A stretch of 64,000 nt of DNA from Chiloscyllium plagiosum (lineage: Eukaryota): the NCBI RefSeq assembly GCF_004010195.1, contig NC_057718.1:60134137-60198136 (forward strand), written 5' to 3'. A program made the position numbers and the translations under genes. The first letter of the stretch is position 1. Each line of letters starts with the position of its first letter. The notes under the pieces were generated by a model. That model searched no databases. It was not told the DNA's origin and saw only the letters and a list, made by a program, of their open reading frames with translations. This document shows, one piece after another, positions 17,971 through 64,000 of this stretch.

Positions 17971-18470
17971 CAACTCATTAGAAGACATTGATGGTGTATT
18001 ATTCCACATGGACAACATACCAGATCTACAAATATAACATTATCAAAATTTAGAGATGCCGGTGTTGGACTGGGGTGTACAAAGTTAAAAATCACACAAC
18101 ACCAGGTTAGCGTCCACTATCACCTGATGAAGGAGCGTCGCTCCGAAAGCTAGTGTGCTTTCAATTAAATCTGTTGGAATATAACCTGGTGTTGTGTGAT
18201 TTTTAACATTATCAAAGCAACAACTCATTAGAAGACATTGATGGTGTATTATTCCACATGGACAACATACCAGATCTACAAATATAACATTATCAAAATT
18301 TAGAGATGCCGGTGTTGGACTGGGGTGTACAAAGTTAAAAATCACACAACACCAGGTTAGCGTCCACTATCACTGATGAAAGCTAGTGTGCTCCGAAAGC
18401 TAGTGTGCTTTCAATTAAATCTGTTGGACTATAACCTGGTGTTGTGTGATTTTTAACATTATCAAAGCAA
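17971..18470 (+). repeat. 250-bp tandem duplication (17971-18220 / 18221-18470)
   Basis: Two near-identical units starting caactcattagaagac; they differ mainly in the ctgatga-gaaa segment. Confidence 0.95.
18048..18203. mobile_element. Fold-back family A element with hammerhead-like core (second copy at 18298-18453)
   Basis: 13-bp TSD taacattatcaaa (18035-18047 / 18204-18216); 26-bp perfect IR 18084-18109 / 18182-18207; CTGATGA-A-GGAGC-gtc-GCTCC-GAAA at 18124-18148. Confidence 0.8.
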
Positions 18471-23369: not shown

Positions 23370-24900
23370 GATAGGATGGTAGGGTGCCACCATGGATAGA
23401 GAAAATCCAACATGTAAAGCCATACAGAGTAGTAGAACTTGTTACTATTATAACACAAATGTTTTCTAAGTAAGGCAAGTAAATAATTATACCAGGAAGA
23501 TACTAGGAGGAATGGAAACACTGGTGCCAGAGAGATTTTCTTTCCCGAATAGACCAAATAGAACACAGAGCTGCATATAATAAAGAAAACAATGCAAAAG
23601 ATGTAGAGTAGCTTCTAAATGAGATAGTAAACCAGAAGCTGATCAAATAAATATACTTTTATATATACAACTGACAGGATAGATGATGATATCAGCATTG
23701 ATAACATATCAGTACTGAAAACACGGGACAATTATTTTAATCTGAGAACAAATAACCTTCTTAAAAGAAAAAAAAGAACAGCATTCAGGACAATCCATAA
23801 ATAATTTCATTGATGATCTCTTCAGATTACTGGAGAAATGTGGCTGTAGTGATTTAAGATCTGAATTTGTAAAAGACTGATTTGTTTCAATTGCTGATGA
23901 GTCTTTCTCAGATTTATAATGGTCTAATGAAAACTTTAGTACGGAGAGTAAAAAAAACAGACTATGAGTACAGCAAAAGTCTAGACGCAGAACAATCCAA
24001 AGATCAATCAGAAGGGGAGAAGATCAATCTTGGTGTAGGAGATCAGCTGAATCCATTCAGTTTTTAAGTTGCAAAATTGCAAAAGACCCATGTGACAAAT
24101 CAATACAGTGAGTAGGACAGACATCAAGTAGTAAAATCCACCATCAGTGCTGTAAAGCTTCGTAGGAACAGGCAGTATCTAGATATTAAAAGTGAATGTT
24201 TTATTTGTAACACAACAGGTCACTTTCAGAAAATGTATCCAGGTAGAGCACAATCGTAGAAAACAAGCAGTCTAATAGCTACCCACTAGGTAAAAACAAT
24301 GACTGCAGATGCTGGAAACCAGATTCTGGATTAGTGGTGCTGGAAGAGCACAGCGGTTCAGGCAGTATCCAAGGAGCAGCGAAATTGACGTTTCGGGCAA
24401 TGCTCCTCGAATGCTGCCTGAACTGCTGTGCTCTTCCAGCACCACTAATCCAGAACCTAATAGCTACCCACACAAAGAGATTGATGAGACAAAATAATCT
24501 ACAATAGCAGAAAAACCTAATATATTTATAAAGAAAATAAGTCATCCAGAATGAGCTTTTTGGCAAAAGGATATTTGTGTCAATGGAGATCTCATGAATT
24601 TCAAGTTAAACTGGGAACAGATATCGCTTTCTGATCAGGTAGTGAATCATGTTTGAAGGAACAATATTTACAAACAACCAAAGTGCAACTACCTGATCCA
24701 GGAAGTATAAGACTTAAAATTAAAGATAAGCTAAAAGCAATTTTGCGTCATAAGGGACAGGCACTTCACAAAAAAATTCTAACACTTGGATATAAATGTG
24801 TGTATATCCCATTGAGCTAACTAACATTTTTTTATTGATGTAACACAAGACAACTTGGTGAATAAGCAGTAAGAACAGATTCAGAATTTTAGATGCTAAA
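23370..24900 (+). mobile_element. Decayed Ty3/Gypsy gag-protease remnant
   Basis: KPEADQINILLY; FIDDLFRLLEKCGCSDLRSEFVKD; zinc knuckle-like ECFICNTTGHFQKMY near 24195-24240; decayed NFKLxTG protease-like motif near 24597. Confidence 0.6.
24287..24456. mobile_element. Fold-back family B element (Penelope-type; only the 3' half of the hammerhead retained)
   Basis: 15-bp TSD ctaatagctacccac (24272-24286 / 24457-24471); ~45-bp IR arms 24324-24368 / 24411-24455; minus-strand gcccgaaacgtc. Confidence 0.85.
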
Positions 24901-35116: not shown

Positions 35117-35215
35117 GATTTATCCTGATGAAGGGCTTTTGCCCGAAACGTCGATTTTCCTGCTCCTCGGATGCTGCCTGATCTGCTGTGCTTTTCCAGC
35201 ACCACTCTAGTCTTG
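35117..35215 (+). mobile_element. Family B short element with an intact minimal hammerhead (35122-35155)
   Basis: ATC-CTGATGA-A-GGGC-tttt-GCCC-GAAA-CG-TC-GAT; 9-bp TSD ataaatact 35108-35116 / 35216-35224. Confidence 0.85.
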
Positions 35216-35624
35216 ATAAATACTAAAGTCCATTTTAAGCCTTCTGAAGAACATTATTTTCTAGCTATCACCTGCCACACATAGATTTCTATCACATTGT
35301 TAAGTTGATTTCTAAATATATACTGTTAATTATATTTTTCAAAATAGTAAGTACCTCTGAACTCATATGGATTGAAATCATGCTGGATAATACTCATTAT
35401 GAACATTGAACAAAACAAAATAGGGTAAAGATCCTAAGCCAGCTTTTAGTGCAGGAATTTAATGTATCTTAAATAGTAGCACAGTATTAAATATATTAGA
35501 AAATCAGAATGTACTTTGGCTGTAGTAGTCCATGGTGTTCCACAACATTCTTATCATTTATTGCCAATGCATGAGATTGCCTACATTTTGTTTACAGAGT
35601 TTGGAACTTATTAGATTTCATTCT

Positions 35625-36529: not shown

Positions 36530-37160
36530 GTACTTCTTGGAATTTAGAAGAATGAGTGGGAATCTTATCAAAATATATAAAATTATGAAGTGAATAGATA
36601 GGATAGAAGCAAGGAGGTTGTTTTCACTGGCGGGTGAAACTAGAACTAGAGGGCATAGCTTCAAAATAAGGGGAAGCCAATTTAGGACTGAGTTGAGGAG
36701 GAACTTCTTCACCCAAAGGGTTGTGAATCTGTGCAATTCCCTGCCCAATGAAACAGTTGAGGCTACCTCATTGAATGTTTTTAAGTCAAGCGTATGGTGC
36801 TGGAAAAGCACAGCAGGGCAGGGAGCATCTGAGGAGCAGGAGAATCGATGTTTCGAGCATAAGCCCTTCATCAGGAAAATGTCAATATTCCTGCTCCTCC
36901 GATGCTGCCTGAGCTTCTGTGTTTTTCCAGCACCACACTCTCAACTCTGATCTCCAGCATCTGCAGTCCTCACTTTCTGAAAATGATTTTAACGCAAAGA
37001 TAGATAAAGTTTTGAATGGTAACGGAATTAAGGGCTATCGTGTGTGGGTGTGTAAGTAGACTTGAGTCCACAAAACGATCAGCCATGATCTTATCGAATG
37101 GTGGAGCAGGCTCGATGGGCCAGATGGCCTACTCCTGCTTCTAGTTCTTATGTTCCTATG
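36530..37160 (+). mobile_element. CR1 3' end interrupted by a family B element
   Basis: ORF FSLAGETRTRGHSFKIRGSQFRTELRRNFFTQRVVNLCNSLP; tail ttcttatgttcctatg. Confidence 0.9.
36786..36980. mobile_element. Fold-back family B element, hammerhead on - (36844-36877)
   Basis: IR arms tggtgctggaaaagcacag... / ...ctgtgtttttccagcacca; minus-strand CTGATGA-A-GGGC-ttat-GCTC-GAAA-CA-TC-GAT; degenerate TSD aatgtttttaag / aatgattttaac. Confidence 0.8.
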
Positions 37161-40799: not shown

Positions 40800-42600
40800 A
40801 GAGTCATAGAGTCATAGAGTCATAGAGATGTACAGCATGGAAACAGACCCTTTGGTCCAACCTGTCCATGCCGACCAGATATCCCAACCCAATCTAGTTT
40901 CACCTGCCAGCACAGGCCTATATCCCTCCAAACCCTTCCTATTCATATACCCATTCAAATGCCTCTTAATCATTGCAATTGTACCAGCCTCCACCACATC
41001 CTCTGGCAGCTCATTCCATACACATACCACCCTCTGCGTTAAAAAGTTGTCCCTTAGGTCTCTTTTATATCTTTCCCCTCTCATCCTAAACCTATGCCCT
41101 CTAGTTCTGGACTCCCTGACCCCAGGGAAAAGACTTTGCCTATTTATCCTATCCATGCCCCTCATAATTTTGTAAACCTCTATAAGATCACCCCTCAGCC
41201 TCCGACGCTCCAAGGAAAACAGCCCCAGCCTGTTCAGCCTCTCCCTGTAGCTCAGATCCTCCAACCCTGGCAACATCCTTGTAAATCTTTTCTGAACCCT
41301 TTCAAGTTTCACAACATCTTTCCGATACGAAGGAGACCAGAATNNNNNNNNNNNNNNNNNNNNNNNNNNNNNNNNNNNNNNNNNNNNNNNNNNNNNNNNN
41401 NNNNNNNNNNNNNNNNNNNNNNNNNNNNNNNNNNNNNNNNNNNNNNNNNNNNNNNNNNNNNNNNNNNNNNNNNNNNNNNNNNNNNNNNNNNNNNNNNNNN
41501 NNNNNNNNNNNNNNNNNNNNNNNNNNNNNNNNNNNNNNNNNNNNNNNNNNNNNNNNNNNNNNNNNNNNNNNNNNNNNNNNNNNNNNNNNNNNNNNNNNNN
41601 NNNNNNNNNNNNNNNNNNNNNNNNNNNNNNNNNNNNNNNNNNNNNNNNNNNNNNNNNNNNNNNNNNNNNNNNNNNNNNNNNNNNNNNNNNNNNNNNNNNN
41701 NNNNNNNNNNNNNNNNNNNNNNNNNNNNNNNNNNNNNNNNNNNNNNNNNNNNNNNNNNNNNNNNNNNNNNNNNNNNNNNNNNNNNNNNNNNNNNNNNNNN
41801 NNNNNNNNNNNNNNNNNNNNNNNNNNNNNNNNNNNNNNNNNNNNNNNNNNNNNNNNNNNNNNNNNNNNNNNNNNNNNNNNNNNNNNNNNNNNNNNNNNNN
41901 NNNNNNNNNNNNNNNNNNNNNNNNNNNNNNNNNNNNNNNNNNNNNNNNNNNNNNNNNNNNNNNNNNNNNNNNNNNNNNNNNNNNNNNNNNNNNNNNNNNN
42001 NNNNNNNNNNNNNNNNNNNNNNNNNNNNNNNNNNNNNNNNNNNNNNNNNNNNNNNNNNNNNNNNNNNNNNNNNNNNNNTTATCCACTTTTAACCGTTTCA
42101 AGACATCCAGCACTTTCTCCTCTGTATATCTGGACGTTTTGCAAGATGTCACCATCTATTTCCCTACAGTCTATATCTTCCATATCCTTTTCCACAGTAA
42201 ATACTGATGCAAAATATTCATTTAGTATCTTCCCCATTTTCTGTGGCTCCACACAAAGGCCGCCTTGCTGATCTTTGAGGGGCCCTATTCTCTCCCTAGT
42301 TACCCTTTTGTCCTTAATGTATTTGTAAGAACTCTTTGAATTCTCCTTAATTCTATTTGCCAAAGCTATCTCATGTCCCCGTTTTGCCCTCCTGATTTCC
42401 CTCTTAAGTATACTTCCACTTTCGTTATACTCTTCTAAGGATTCACTTGATCTATCCTGTCTATACCTGACATATGCTTCCTTCTTTTTATTTACTAAAC
42501 CCTCAATTTCTTTAGTCATCCAGCATTCCCTATACCTACCAGCCTTCCCTTTCACCCTGACAGGAATATACTTTCTCTGGATTCTCGTTATCTCATTTCC
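40800..42600 (-). mobile_element. Young HER1/CR1 LINE spanning the assembly gap
   Basis: (gagtcata)3 tail; FWSPSYRKDVVKLERVQKRFTRMLPG below the gap and YIPVRVKGKAGR...IGPLKDQQG...LNEYFASVFT above it. Confidence 0.93.
41344..42078. other. Assembly gap (735 N)
   Basis: Run of N. Confidence 1.
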
Positions 42601-56427: not shown

Positions 56428-56747
56428 AGTCATCGAGTCACAGAGATGTACAGCATGGAAACAGACCCTTCGGTCCAACCCGTCCATGTCGACCAGATAT
56501 CTCAACCCAATCTAGTCCCACCTGCCAGCACCCGACCCATATCTCTCCAAATCCTTACTATTCATATACCCATCCAAATGCCTTTTAAATGTTGCAATTG
56601 TACCAGACTCCACCACTTCCTCTGGCAGCTCATTCCATAAATGTACCACCCTCTGTGTGAAAAAGTTGCCTCTTAGATCTCTTTTATATCTTTCCCCTCT
56701 CACCCTAAACCTATGCCCTCTAGTTCTGGATTCTCCCACCCCAGGAA
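56428..56747 (-). mobile_element. HER1/CR1 3' end
   Basis: FPGVGESRTRGHRFRVRGERYKRDLRGNFFTQRVV. Confidence 0.92.
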
Positions 56748-56881
56748 ATGGATCAGTTAATTCAGCATGCATACCATCAATATTGGTATACATCAGTTCT
56801 CCTTTCTTTGAATGCTACTACAAGACATACCAAACTGTTTTGCAACTTACCTAACAAGCATTAACTGAAACATAAGTTAAC

Positions 56882-57439
56882 CTCTCACTGAGTAATCCAG
56901 GGCGTTGTGACTTGACTCCCTCACTCCATTGTATGAGGATCAGATGGACTTGTGGTGCATGTCTGATACGAGATCAGAAAGTTGCAAATGGACAACTGGA
57001 TTCATAAATCAGAGGTCTATCTATCAAAGTCAGCGTCTTCTGCTACAGTTGTAGTGTTCCTACATTTGGGCTAGAAAGTCTGGATTCAAGTTTATCTACT
57101 CCAGAGCTGTATTTGAACACATTGATTAAAAACTTTTATAACAATGGTGACTGAATGGTAAGGAGTTAGATTGCTAATCCTTTGTATTCTCCACACACAG
57201 GTGTGATCTTGTCACTGTAATTGCATTGCAGCATGTTTTAAGAGATCTTGTAGCACAATTGGTCACATTCCTCCCTCTGGGCCAGAATATCCGGGTTTGC
57301 GTCCCATACCAGGATGTATTGAACTTGGAAAGTGCATCAATGACACAGCCAGATAGATTGATTACCAAACCGCAAAACCTTCGAATACACCTGAGAGTGA
57401 GGGAGTCAAGTCACAACGCCCTGGATTACTCAGTGAGAG
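56882..57439. repeat. Perfect 45-bp inverted repeat with 468-bp spacer
   Basis: 56882-56926 ctctcactgagtaatccagggcgttgtgacttgactccctcactc is the exact reverse complement of 57395-57439. Confidence 0.97.
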
Positions 57440-57560
57440 TATCAGAGCTTACTGGTCAACCATTCTGCAGAAGGCAATGGCAAACCATTGCAGTATTTCG
57501 CCAGACCTAGACAATGGAAGTTGATGGGTTGACCCTCAGAAATAGAGATGGGAGAAAAGA
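57245..57560 (+). mobile_element. Diverged tRNA-headed SINE with an RTE/BovB-like motif (a second head at ~57035-57110)
   Basis: Head tgtagcacaattggtcacattcctccctctgggccagaatatccgggtttgcgtccc; gaaggcaatggcaaaccattgcagtatttcgcc resembles RTE/Bov-A gaaggaaatggcaacccactccagtattcttgcc. Confidence 0.5.
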
Positions 57561-60500
57561 CAGTCAGTGAAAGAAGGGAAGACTTGAGGTTGTCTTCTTA
57601 CTTCTGAGTTCAAATCTCACCTGTCCTAAAGTTATCTTATAACATATCCTAACAGATTAATTAAAGTAATTACTGAATGAGAATCATAGAACTTTGAAGA
57701 GTCGTAAGAGCAGGAAAAGCTTATTATGCCTAGCATTGACTTCAGCCTGCATCTCCCTTTTCTGTCATGAAAAATATTACAATTGTTTCTTAAACTCAGT
57801 GCAGTTCACTGTTCACTTATGATCCTGTAACTGAAAGTGTTCTCCCAGACTCCCTTTTGTCTTCCTAACTTTTGTATTTACTTATGGTTAATAATATGTC
57901 CAACACAATCCCTTGAGCAGACATGTTAGCCCTCATATTTACGGACAGGCAGGGGGAATGAGGAAAGCCAAAAGTGGTACAAAAAGTAGTCAAGCATAGA
58001 ATTCCTGCCAAATTAAAACCATGACATCTTCTTTTGAAATTTGACAGAAGTAACTAATTTATTAAACCATCCCAAAAACAGGTCTAGGCAAAAAATGCAG
58101 TCACTTGCAAAACAGAAAAATAGATCTGGACTGAATCTAAGGTTGAAGTTATAGCTTAGACTCCAATCACATAGTGAAACCAGAGCTCACCCAATTTGTT
58201 GTACATGACTGTCCAACATAGGCTTCTCACAAAGCTGAGCTTTAATCAACTAAAACTATCACATTTGTACTGGCATGCATCTAAAATTGCTTATATCATC
58301 AATGCTTGGAAATAATGTCAAAGATAAAAAAAAATCCTCACCAAGGACAATTCTCTGTTTTTGCAAAGATGGAGAGGTCAGTACTTAATTTATAGGAACG
58401 TTTGAACTTGGGATACAACATTGAGTGACATCATTGCTCTGAGAATTTGTCGCCTGCTGGGAGTCTAAAGCTGAACTGGAATGTAAAATTTTGATAATAG
58501 AAAGACAATGTTGACAAATATAGCCTGATGAAGAATCCTTGAACTACAAAATTTTGAAAGAATTGCTGATAAAATAACGTGATACTTTCAGTTTGAGGAG
58601 GAAACCCAAAGGTCATACATTCTCAAAAGGCATCTCTTGGCATTAAAACAACCTAAATAAATACCTATTGAATCTGAAGCGATAGAATCAGAAATTAGGA
58701 TAGAACTGACATCAGTGCTGGAAAAGGATTAGTGGGAATCTAAAAGAATTTGATTGAACAGAAGCAATGAAAAGAGCCAAAGTCGCCAATGCGGATAAAC
58801 CCTGCTATTGTCATGCCTAAAATGAGGCTGAAATACAGCAAATTGTAATTGAAATGTTAGAGACACTGACTGGTGCCTGGTTGTTCAACCAGGATTTCTC
58901 TGGTGACATTGTCACTATTTTTGCCTTCCCAGCTTTTCTTCTGCATATGGTAACATTAGCAGATCTTAAGAACACTGTAGATTTCTGCTACTTCCAACCC
59001 AGTTACTGCCACTTCCTGGAGCTATTCTGTGTAAAAGTAAGGACAGGAACTGACATCTGGCAGTCATTCTCAATTTGTCTGTTCAGGTCTAAGAGTGAGA
59101 TTCCACAATTATCTGACTGAAAGGTGAGAGTGCAGCCAATTGTACACAGCAGAAAAATGAATATGCGAGGGATGGGCAGACATCTCTCATTTTCCTGTTG
59201 CAACTCCAATCTGAAACCAATTGTCTCTTACATCCTAACAACGCTATTGGAAAACCAGAGAGTGGAAAGGTTGAGTGGCTTCATAGAAAATTGCCTGAAA
59301 GAAAGTGTGAGTTAATGATGTGAACTGTAGGGTTTGACTCCAGCAAACGTGAATCATCTTCTCAGACTTTAAAAATCTCTATAAAAACCCAATACGAAAG
59401 TAAAATTATATTCACAAGGGTGTGAAAGATATGACGAAAAATACAATTAAGCAGAAAACACAATAAAGAGAGTATTGTATCTACAATATGCAAAAATCAC
59501 TGAGAATTATGCTACTCTAAATGGGAAGAGAGATTAATTATTAAATCTTTTATTTAGTTAGTGCCTTGTGATAATTATACACATAATTACCATAAAATAT
59601 TAACTGTGCTGAATTCATACAGTAAGAAAGAGGGATTTTCTGTTTCACTTCTTTGAGATGGAAAGTATTTTTTGCATGTGTGTGTGTAAGTAACATGATA
59701 TCCAAAACATTGGATTATTTAATAAGAGTGAGACAAATTAACAAATAGTCCAGTCAAAAAAATGTAAGAGATAGGATTTATTTATTTTGTTTTATTTTTC
59801 TTCAGGGTTGCATAAACCACATTGAATTCATAGTCTACCTCTGATTTTCTTGGCAATGTTATGGAAAACCTTATTCTTAAGTCATTACATTACAGATACA
59901 GCTGCCGTAAAGGAAATCAGAGAGAATCAATTACATGTGAAGTTGAGAGATTGTGTCCCCCTGTGCTACTTCAGCAAAGTTGCTTACCTGGTTCATTGTA
60001 TGCGTTCCCTAAGGCTCACAAGTGTGCTGGCTGGCTCAGAATGGGAGTATCTCTTGACTGTCACCAGGAACCTAAGGTGTCTGCACAGGGTCTGTTTGGC
60101 GGGTCCACAGTCTTAGTAGTAAGAAAGCTTTCTGAAGTAGAGTTTGTGATTTAAAAAAAGTGAATCTATGAAAGCAGAGAAAATTTGAGTCTGTTATGAT
60201 CGCTGGATCAGCGCAGAACCTGAGTACATTGTATTGTGCTGCCAACTGAAAAGCAGTAGTCTGATATAAATTTTGAGCAGGAGTGAAGTGTTTTACATGC
60301 AAAGAAGACCCAGTATAAACAGGAAAATGACATAAAAAGTAGTGAAAATACTGGAAACTGTTGTGCCAAGAAAATACATTCAGAAAACCACAAAGGCTAA
60401 ACTGGGAATGGATGCAAACATGAATGATGATCTTCAAGTTAAATTACTAACCAGAGCTGAATTATAATTTAGGATGGTGTCAGGTGCTGGCTAAATGCCA

Positions 60501-62248
60501 CGATTGGCTGTGGAAACTGAGGCTGTGCCAGGATTGACGACGAAATTGAAATTGGAAGTCGCATTGCCAGTAAATGATGAGCCAACAACCAGTGTTGTTG
60601 ACAAAAGGTAAGCCAGAAGCTGGTTTGATTTGGAATTTGATCCAAAGATTGGGATTGTCATGGGAGCAGTATTAGTCATAGAGGCCAGACTAGCTGCTAA
60701 ATTGTTCATAAATACTCAGCCAGAAGCTGAGATGTTGTTCGAAGTTTGGGCAGCTATTGAAAGCATTACAGGGCGACAGGCAGTCTGCTGTGAAAGACAA
60801 GGGAATTTGAGGTAAAGATATTGAAGCAGACAACTCTATTTGATCTGTTCTGAGCCAATAGTCAGATTAGCAAATGTCTGATTTAACTTGGCCTGCTTGG
60901 CCAATCACTGTGCAACTCACAACCTCTTCTCAATATTGTTTCATTGAGTTAAACTTCCTATTTTGTGAAGAAACATGAAAGAATCACTGTATTATAATTA
61001 CAATTTTGAAATGTTTGATTCCTGAAATTTGGATTGGTAAGCAAAAGTGGAAAAATAGCATCAAATAATAAAGCTCACAATACATACCAAATGGATTACC
61101 GACACAGTTCAAAAGTCAAGAATTGATCTTCCACTTATGGTGCGCATATTTTTCAGCAAAAATGGTTTACCTGTGACCATATGTTTTTAAAATGGGAAAC
61201 TAAAATGAGAAAATTCACAGGACATATTCAGGCCCACATTGGCAAATCTGAGTTTATTTCATAAGAAGGCTTTGCACAATAGGTCATTCTTTGACACAGC
61301 AATTTCAAATCAGAATATATCCTGTGGTTTACTGGGAAGCAAAGTAAAAAGATTAAATCTCAACAGCATTGGGACCAAGTTCACAAATAGGGCAACTTAA
61401 CACAAAAATTAGAATTAAAGTTAAATTAATGAAAATACTTCAACTACAACACTTGGATACTTTCATTTGGGATTGGTGTTTAAGAGCATCCTAGAGAATA
61501 AAGAAAATTATACCTTTGGTTCATATTATCTCTTCTATCCTACTGTTCTAGTTAACTGTAGGTGCAAGGATCTTGTGGATTTCATTGCCACAATGTTGGA
61601 GACTGGAATTGAATTTTTGCATATGTTTCCCACTTGTTCCCTGTAACTCAATGGAAGAGTAACAAAAAAAAAATTTGTTACTTAAGATTTACATAACTCT
61701 TCCATCAAACTTGTAGTGGATAAAGAGAAGAATTTCTGTGAAAATATACCCCACCTTGGTGTCAAATGTGTTGTACATCTAATGGATTTACTACTCTAAG
61801 CTAGCTGCAGATTGTGTCAAGAACCTAGGAGTTTGAGAGTGTGCCACCTGAATTCGTGCTTTTCTGAGTTGTAAAACACAACTTTAACAAGAAGTACACT
61901 TACTTATGAAAAGCATCATTGGTTGTCTGAAAATACATGCATCCTTTTAAGCTCAGAGGTTTTTCAGTTAACAATTGCTTTAATGTCTAGTGTTTAGTCA
62001 CATTAAGGAGTAGATCAATGTGCAACTCTATGCATATATTGAGTAAGATATTGACTAAGATTTCAAAATATCTTTTCCTAACATAATATAATTTTTCTTT
62101 TTATTAGATTATTGTGCTTGATAGAAAATAATTCAAATGAAAGATTTATTATTAACAAGTTCAATATTAATTTCGTGAAATCACTCTCTACTAATCAGGA
62201 TATACTTTCTCTGTTGCAGGCAATTCTTCAGACTGATTTCTATGCTTC

Positions 62249-62452
62249 AAGAGAGTGGTGCTGGAAAAGCACAGCAAGTCGGGCAGCAGCCGAAGAGCAG
62301 GAAAATCGACATTTTGGGCAAAAGCCCTTCATCAAGGATTATTTTTGCCCGAAACTTCTTGCTCCTCGGATGCTGCCTGACCTGCTAAGCTTTTCCAGCA
62401 CCACACTCTTGATTCTAATCTCTAGCATCTGCAGTTCTCAATTTTGCCTAGT
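62249..62452. mobile_element. Fold-back family B element with a decayed hammerhead
   Basis: 15-bp TSD tgatttctatgcttc 62234-62248 / 62453-62467; IR arms gtggtgctggaaaagc / gcttttccagcaccac; minus ttgatgaagggcttttgcccaaaatgtcgat and plus ttttgcccgaaac. Confidence 0.85.
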
Positions 62453-63390: not shown

Positions 63391-64000
63391 TTTCTTTTAA
63401 TTATCATCTTATAGCTGATGTTTTCAATTTCACTGTGGCACAATGACTACATGGAAAATCAGACAATGATCTTACAAACTTGGCTTGTGGCCTGGTAGTC
63501 TCAGACTGTCACCATTACGGAGAATTCAGGGTCCCACAACACCTTAGTAATCTGTTCTTTAAAAGATAATGGATTTAGAAGGAATGCAGAGTTGTTCTGG
63601 GAAATATTAGTGTCTCCGTGAAGCATGAACCTGCTGTTTTCTCTCAGTATGCTGCTACTCCTTGTCTCCACCACTGTCACTCTGCCAGTGCCCTTGTTGT
63701 AACCTGTCAGCCATCCCATGTTATTGCAGCCCATGCTATAATGGCACCTATAGTTTACTGCAGAGTCACTGACAGTCTCACAACCTTCCACAGACACTGA
63801 GGTCACACTACATAGAGCAATAAGAGAACTAAAGAAACATGCAATATTAAGAAAATACATGAGAATGAATAGTTGAATATTGTGGAATACCAGATAATCT
63901 TTTGAATTTAGTTGATAAGGAATGGTTTTGTGGTAAGTAACTTCCAGAATGTAATGAAGAGGATACTATGACGATCCATATGAGTAAACAGTTTAGGTGT

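What the first reader, a model, noticed from the sequence alone, without database searches (positions are those of the whole stretch)
56882..57439. Unexplained perfect 45-bp inverted repeat with no TSD
Seen: 45/45 identity between the arms (56882-56926, 57395-57439), including a retained CpG, in a region where neighbouring repeats are visibly diverged. I did not see the arm sequence elsewhere in the window. The flanks (…gttaac / tatcag…) show no TA, TAA, TTAA or 8-9-bp duplication. The right arm appears to sit inside an old SINE, and the 468-bp spacer has no convincing ORF. Inferred options: a very young MITE with atypical ends, an invertible segment or recent inversion with duplicated breakpoints, a template-switch copy, an RNA duplex kept by selection or gene conversion, or an assembly artefact.
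Basis: seen in the sequence. Interest (0 to 1): 0.7.

Follow-up and report, generated by a model that had tools for sequence, protein, structure and literature searches.

The report
Recent backwards-copy mutation scar
A recent DNA copying slip pasted 36 bases, backwards, from about 500 bases away and so made a perfect inverted repeat; two related species lack the pasted piece, so this is a clean but ordinary mutation scar, not a mobile element or a switch.

Summary
The 45/45 inverted repeat is real, and contig ends in one run match a genuine two-copy repeat. The arms differ in age. Orthologous contigs of two related species (one run each) keep the spacer and right arm colinear but lack 36 and 38 bp of the left arm. 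The left arm is therefore a young reverse-complement insertion copied from the right arm into a site already sharing 7-9 nt with it. The 'retained' CpG is new: both relatives read T at 57418, and the new G was copied into the left arm. This lineage has only about 0.8-1.4% substitutions since the split, so identical arms need no selection (P about 0.3-0.7). MITE, breakpoint-duplicating inversion and artefact are not supported. Best mechanism: a polymerase template switch, probably a strand folding back over a 468-nt loop, copying about 36 nt and returning at a near-identical octamer. The class is known (human inverted duplications, four-point template switches); only the reach exceeds the short-range surveys. 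The scan noted similar scars on other DNA before. No RNA was examined.

The parts
56882..56926 (+). Left arm: the young copy plus the pre-existing bases that match the donor
   Evidence: no cover of bin 56887-56916 in organisms B and C, whose contigs join across it
56882..56917 (+). The 36 bp gained (can equally be written 56890-56925; organism C differs by 38 bp)
   Evidence: Joints 56881->56918 in X11 and 56880->56919 in X20, no letters between, at least 114 letters on each side (tables 5 and 8)
56882..56889 (+). Octamer CTCTCACT: outer end of the copy, inferred return (re-annealing) point
   Evidence: 7 of 8 identical to the target octamer; chance about 4e-4; role inferred
56918..56926 (+). 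Pre-existing 9-mer CCCTCACTC: inferred priming microhomology; its only inverted partner in the window is at 57395
   Evidence: Present in B (9 nt) and C (8 nt); chance at a fixed place 2e-6, one inverted partner in 64 kb
56927..57394 (.). 468-bp spacer in ancestral orientation, holding two SINE-like fragments; the loop of the inferred fold-back
   Evidence: Colinear with both flanks in single contigs of B and C
57395..57439 (-). Right arm: the old donor, present in all three organisms
   Evidence: B differs at 2 of 45 positions (57395, 57418), C at 3 of 45 (57397, 57418, 57432)
57418..57418 (+). Lineage-specific G (T in B and C) that creates the CpG; mirrored as C at 56903 in the left arm
57247..57336 (+). 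High-copy repeat, SINE-head-like (family not identified; the SINE label is recalled)
   Evidence: Depth peak and loose ends in 4 of 4 runs
57433..57503 (+). High-copy repeat, SINE-tail-like, overlapping the last bases of the right arm
   Evidence: Depth peak and paralogous pieces 57433-57490, 57444-57503
57036..57093 (+). Second high-copy SINE-head-like fragment inside the spacer
   Evidence: Depth peak and paralogous pieces in 4 of 4 runs

Best explanation
The inverted repeat is the scar of one recent germline template switch. SHOWN: before the event the left site held only an 8-9-nt motif; 36 bp identical to the reverse complement of the right-arm region were added there; spacer and donor stayed in place; the copy carries this lineage's own base at 57418. 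INFERRED: a bottom strand being made from right to left had already passed the right arm and the spacer. At 56918-56926 its 3' end came off, folded back over a 468-nt loop and paired by 7-9 nt with its own complement at 57395-57403. It copied itself out to 57439, unfolded, and re-annealed where it had left, because the donor also ends in a near-copy of the same octamer; synthesis then went on. In four-point terms this is a 3-2-1-4 event (3-2-4-1 if the octamer was used to return). Given a template switch, I put intra-strand fold-back on a nascent or gap-filling strand at about 0.55, an inter-strand switch at an uncoupled fork at about 0.25, and patching of a resected or staggered break by polymerase theta at about 0.2. 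The product most likely does nothing.
For: Empty sites in B and C, each one contig with no letters between the sides. Donor present and colinear in both. Shared T at 57418 in B and C against G/C in both arms of A. Microhomology at the priming junction under every candidate ancestral state: 9 nt (B-like), 8 nt (C-like), 7 nt by reading the sequence (A-like); return side 7 of 8, 3 nt or 8 nt respectively (and sequence). All four contig ends in X1 (56911, 56897, 57424, 57410) equal those predicted for a real 45-bp two-copy repeat at k=31. X5, from another study, has an exact contig 56900-57159 with 18 insertion-only letters joined to the spacer, and a separate contig across the right arm. Lineage substitutions 7-12 in about 840 bp give P(identical arms) 0.28-0.70. 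Same geometry in print: PMC4617611, PMC5453318, PMC7954356, PMC5728401.
Against: The direction rests on one contig per relative (1 of 9 B runs, 1 of 3 C runs laid). The root ((A,B),C) rests on a clock argument: p = 0.03 on listed sites, 0.06 in the worst case. The two empty alleles differ by 2 bp, so the ancestral octamer is not fixed and an extra change is needed in B or C. The 468-nt reach is far beyond the 30-50 bp usual for polymerase-theta or SD-MMEJ insertions. The X5 contig has 27 arm letters, under the tool's 31-letter bridging rule. The modelled fold-back pairing (0.71) is no better than with a shuffled spacer (28 of 40 shuffles as high), so folding adds no support. Sequence alone cannot name the strand or the enzyme.
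Confidence: 0.89

Rival explanations
1. The repeat is ancestral, and B and C lost the left arm by slippage between the two octamers; the arms in A were kept identical by chance or conversion.
For: The octamers are direct repeats that could guide a 36-bp deletion, and the two empty alleles differ in size (36 and 38 bp), as separate losses might.
Against: It needs two losses (or B and C as sisters, though B-C is the largest distance on listed sites: 7 shared, 8 B-only, 17 C-only), plus arms unchanged since the A-C split (P about 0.17), plus the 57418 change copied to both arms.
Confidence: 0.04
2. The arms form an RNA duplex (editing or small-RNA substrate) kept perfect by selection or repeated gene conversion.
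For: Either strand folds the full 45-bp stem in the model. One lineage-specific base is shared by both arms, as conversion would also give.
Against: The duplex does not exist in B or C. The donor is not conserved above its flanks (2 and 3 differences against 1.1 and 1.8 expected). Youth alone explains the identity. No Rfam match in the window.
Confidence: 0.03
3. An inversion with duplicated breakpoints, or an invertible segment, made the repeat.
For: Inverted repeats flank the spacer. k=31 contigs of X1 cannot fix the spacer's orientation.
Against: In B and C, left flank, spacer, right arm and right flank are colinear with the window in single contigs; X5 has a contig across the right arm in the window's orientation. 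The only difference is the insertion.
Confidence: 0.02
4. A young MITE with atypical ends.
For: Size (558 bp), perfect terminal inverted repeats, no long ORF.
Against: The empty site lacks only 36-38 bp, not 558; spacer and right arm are older than the species split. No paralogous contigs on the right-arm bin in 4 of 4 runs, and extra depth on the left-arm bin in X1 (7.0) fits a two-copy core. No target-site duplication.
Confidence: 0.01
5. Assembly artefact.
For: The window is a gapped scaffold (735 N). X1 may be the source sample and is not independent.
Against: All four arm-flank junctions occur in X1's separately assembled contigs, and one left-arm junction occurs in X5 from another study.
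Confidence: 0.01

Closest known systems
Small dispersed inverted duplications in human genomes ('Inverted Dup', Sudmant et al. 2015, PMC4617611; passages read)
   Same: A stretch under 1 kb inserted in inverted orientation within 5 kb of its source, not tied to retrotransposition; 54% of 229 characterised inversion sites. The same paper reports local templates within 10 kb with microhomology for complex deletions.
   Different: Here the copy is only 36 bp, there is no deletion at the site, and it is seen between species.
Four-point template-switch mutations, type 3-2-1-4 / 1-4-3-2 and '4 before 1' events (PMC5453318 passages; PMC7954356 passages and section 8; PMC9435742 passages)
   Same: One reverse-complement fragment copied from nearby, making a single inverted repeat; point 2 before point 1 allows an intra-strand switch; '4 before 1' events appear as one insertion; 36 nt lies within the reported range (median 12, maximum 128).
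   Different: Those surveys looked within about 100-150 nt; this donor is about 470-520 nt away and would have been missed.
SD-MMEJ snap-back (PMC5728401 passages) and polymerase-theta inverse-repeat templated insertions (PMC7165422 passages)
   Same: Inverted primer repeat, limited synthesis, then a microhomology repeat; the insert becomes part of a longer inverted repeat.
   Different: Their templates lie within 30-50 bp, primers are mostly 1-4 nt and first synthesis is rarely over 10 bp. Here the return motif is the same target motif used for priming, which needs an intact template or a staggered break.
MMBIR-type templated insertions (MMB-TI; PMC8421209 passages and section 10 part 1 of 2)
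   Same: Germline templated insertions of 25 bp or more with microhomology or one-mismatch microhomeology at the junctions; about 100 per person, 10-11 of the classical type.
   Different: The template distance limit used there was not read; no link to break-induced replication can be shown here.
MITEs (recalled)
   Same: Short non-coding unit with terminal inverted repeats.
   Different: No whole-unit empty site, no target-site duplication, no family.

Membership tests
Template-switch / inverted templated insertion | Inserted bases absent from the ancestral allele | tested here: met
   Joints in X11 and X20; direction by outgroup argument
Template-switch / inverted templated insertion | Insert is a reverse-complement copy of a local template that stays in place | tested here: met
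   45/45 match; donor present in all three organisms
Template-switch / inverted templated insertion | Microhomology at the switch points | tested here: met
   7-9 nt at one junction; 8 nt, 7 of 8, or 3 nt at the other depending on the ancestral state (and sequence)
Short-range four-point events as surveyed | Template within about 100 nt | tested here: not met
   468-nt spacer against 100 nt
Polymerase-theta TINS / SD-MMEJ as operationally defined | Template within 30-50 bp of the junction | tested here: not met
   468 nt
Polymerase-theta TINS / SD-MMEJ as operationally defined | Dependence on POLQ | not testable with these tools
   Historical germline event
Small inverted duplication (PMC4617611) | Copy under 1 kb, inverted, within 5 kb of its source | tested here: met
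   36 bp at about 0.5 kb
MITE | Empty orthologous site lacking the whole element | tested here: not met
   B and C keep spacer and right arm
MITE | Target-site duplication outside the terminal repeats | tested here: not met
   Flanks
MITE | Multi-copy family sharing the termini | tested here: not met
   No paralogous contig on bin 57397-57426 in 4 of 4 runs at 80% likeness; contigs, not a whole-genome BLAST
Inversion with breakpoint duplication | Spacer reversed relative to the ancestral state | tested here: not met
   Colinear in B and C
Invertible segment | Both spacer orientations in one population | tested here: inconclusive
   No strand-changing joint listed, but k=31 contigs cannot phase across a 45-bp repeat
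Functional RNA duplex | Transcription across both arms, with editing or small RNAs | not tested
   Reads were laid on DNA runs

The most novel reading that the evidence does not exclude
The event is a newborn functional RNA structure caught at birth: a long-reach fold-back created, in one step, a perfect 45-bp stem in a transcribed region that is now edited or diced, or that lets the spacer flip, with the empty ancestral allele known from two relatives. A related possibility is that the T-to-G change at 57418 arose on the same nascent strand during the event, which would directly prove intra-strand copying over a 468-nt loop.
Probability: 0.05. Interest if true: 0.5.

Novelty: new member of a known kind. 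Interest (0 to 1): 0.17.

Why it matters
As it stands it matters little: it is one more neutral mutation of a described class. Its value is as a clean example. It has a known empty allele, a lineage-specific base that orders the events, and the same short motif at both switch points. It also shows that such events reach about 500 bases, outside the 100-150-nt windows of the published template-switch surveys, so those surveys undercount them. Perfect TSD-less inverted repeats in slowly evolving genomes can be explained this way before new elements are invoked.

Tried and rejected
My first reading, that the RIGHT arm was a copy replacing the middle of a SINE (stated), was reversed. No whole genome is held for this window, so no genome-wide BLAST was possible. 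Rfam: 0 matches in the window; ARAGORN: 0 in 56700-57800. The repeat-tail motif had 0 matches in viral contigs and only itself in the window. No RNA holder was listed, and no RNA run was laid. X5 has no contig of this locus over 56767-56899, which shows nothing. The fold-back pairing probability was not above shuffled spacers. Attempts to name a host gene from nearby open frames failed: Pfam 0 families for 3 of 3 frames, PDB 0, Atlas best 0.79. Two literature searches did not name the SINE family (listings only). A search for shark, template switching, inverted repeat and genome listed 6 papers, none on this locus by title (listing only). No supplements were read; template-distance distributions there could bear on how unusual 468 nt is.

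Full report
Observation. The arms 56882-56926 and 57395-57439 are exact reverse complements over 45 nt, 468 nt apart. Of 59 exact inverted matches of 16 nt or more in the window this is the longest; the next is 33 nt. Identity ends abruptly on both sides and there is no third copy in the window. No duplication flanks the 558-bp unit, and only 36- and 56-aa ORFs overlap it.

Data from other runs. No genome is held. A search with 56760-60700 listed 24 runs, 20 of them holders: 8 of organism A (word share 0.71-0.97), 9 of B (0.25-0.32) and 3 of C (0.23). I laid four on 56767-57666 at 80% likeness: X1 (A, possibly the source), X5 (A, another study), X11 (B) and X20 (C). All are contigs, not reads.

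The arms are real. X1 contigs end at 56911 and 57424 and start at 56897 and 57410, with no differences. These are the four ends predicted for a 45-bp repeat present twice in a k=31 graph. On the left-arm bin, 7.0 depth units are left over after the locus's own contigs, close to the 6.0-7.2 expected for a two-copy core; this is my inference, as that record is not listed. The right-arm bin is fully explained by own contigs. X5 has an exact contig 56900-57159 and another across the whole right arm (57160-57488). The first holds 27 arm letters, 18 of them insertion-only. That is under the tool's 31-letter rule for bridging but hard to get by chance. No joint skipping the arm was listed in X1 or X5.

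The left arm is the new one. The B contig joins 56881 to 56918 (36 bp missing) and the C contig joins 56880 to 56919 (38 bp missing), with no letters between and at least 114 letters on each side. Both then run colinearly through the spacer, the right arm and the right flank. So neither relative has the repeat, both have the donor, and the spacer is not inverted. B differs from the window at 20 letters plus 8 gap letters, C at 34 letters. I could assign 15 of the 20 and 24 of the 34 from the table (the rest lie under repeat depth): 7 shared, 8 B-only, 17 C-only. With a rough clock this roots the three as ((A,B),C) (one-sided p 0.03; 0.06 if all unlisted B differences were shared). States shared by B and C are then ancestral, including the empty site.

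Order and age. At 57418 both relatives read T; A reads G, and the mirror position 56903 reads C. X5 agrees with the window at both. The CpG is therefore new, and the copy carries this lineage's own base. The simplest order is substitution first, copy second; a lineage substitution inside 45 bp has probability 0.31-0.47. With 7-12 lineage substitutions in about 840 bp, identical arms have probability 0.28-0.47 even if the event dates from the split, and 0.56-0.70 if its time is uniform along the branch. The donor is not conserved above its flanks (2 and 3 differences against 1.1 and 1.8 expected).

Junctions. The donor, read on the bottom strand, starts with CTCTCACT and ends with CCCTCACTC, 36 bp apart; the empty site holds a third copy of this motif. 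If the ancestor was like B, 9 nt match perfectly at the inner junction and 7 of 8 at the outer. If like C, 8 nt and 3 nt. If it already had A's outer octamer, 7 nt (read from the sequence) and 8 nt. The 9-mer has one inverted partner in the 64-kb window, the donor's end; a fixed-place match has probability 2e-6, and 7 of 8 has 4e-4. So both switch points were probably guided by the same short motif. That favours a strand that left its template and came back to the place it had left, over a blunt break.

Mechanism (inferred). For a top strand made left to right, the template would lie 500 nt ahead and would have to be the other parental strand. For a bottom strand made right to left, the template is its own earlier part: the 3' end folds back over 468 nt, primes on 7-9 nt, copies to 57439, unfolds and re-anneals by the octamer. 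This is order 3-2-1-4, or 3-2-4-1 with the rewind. The DNA folding model pairs this end with the donor site at 0.71, but 28 of 40 shuffled spacers do as well, so the spacer plays no special part. Strand and enzyme cannot be read from sequence.

Surroundings. Depth peaks and loose ends mark high-copy repeats at 57036-57093, 57247-57336 and 57433-57503 in all four runs, while 57337-57426 has no paralogue at 80%. No host gene could be named.

Comparison. Human sequencing found that 54% of 229 characterised inversion sites were inverted duplications, nearly all under 1 kb and within 5 kb of the source (PMC4617611, passages). The four-point model lists 1-4-3-2 / 3-2-1-4 as making a single inverted repeat (PMC5453318, passages). 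SD-MMEJ snap-back and polymerase-theta inverse-repeat insertions have the same logic but templates within 30-50 bp (PMC5728401, PMC7165422, passages). Germline MMB-TI events of 25 bp or more number about 100 per person (PMC8421209, passages and section 10 part 1). Papers on template switches creating RNA hairpins and microRNAs (PMC8794818, PMC10710096) were seen only as search listings. The event works like snap-back synthesis and is a member of the inverted templated-insertion class, but it fails the distance criteria of the short-range and polymerase-theta definitions. Earlier notes of this scan describe similar scars on other DNA; they were read after and not checked.

Verdict. Real, explained and ordinary: a young 36-bp inverted templated insertion with unusually legible junctions. 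Interest 0.17.

Noticed in passing
window 57400-57422: The donor holds a 7-bp stem (57400-57406 with 57416-57422, 9-nt loop) whose only mismatch is at 57418; with the T of B and C it is perfect, so this lineage's substitution broke it.
   Followed up: partly
window 17971-18470: Young 250-bp head-to-tail duplication: first 153 bp exact, a few differences later, with internal 26-bp inverted repeats in each copy; could be real or an assembly duplication.
   Followed up: partly
window 24324-24455: 31-bp exact inverted repeat with a 70-nt gap, related to 62247-62452, which also matches 35122-35217 and 36786-36976; earlier notes describe Penelope-like fold-back stubs in this genome, not tested here.
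   Followed up: no
window 63504-63860 (- strand): 119-aa open frame ending ...VMVTV-stop that reads like coding sequence, with no Pfam, PDB or convincing Atlas match.
   Followed up: partly
window 57327-57335: Organism B has adjacent 6-bp and 2-bp deletions here.
   Followed up: no
window 57452 (loose ends): The commonest paralogues of the repeat tail (12-17 contigs per run) carry a different sequence upstream of 57452, so this copy belongs to a less common form or is rearranged.
   Followed up: no
window 41344-42078: 735-base run of N inside a LINE-like stretch.
   Followed up: no
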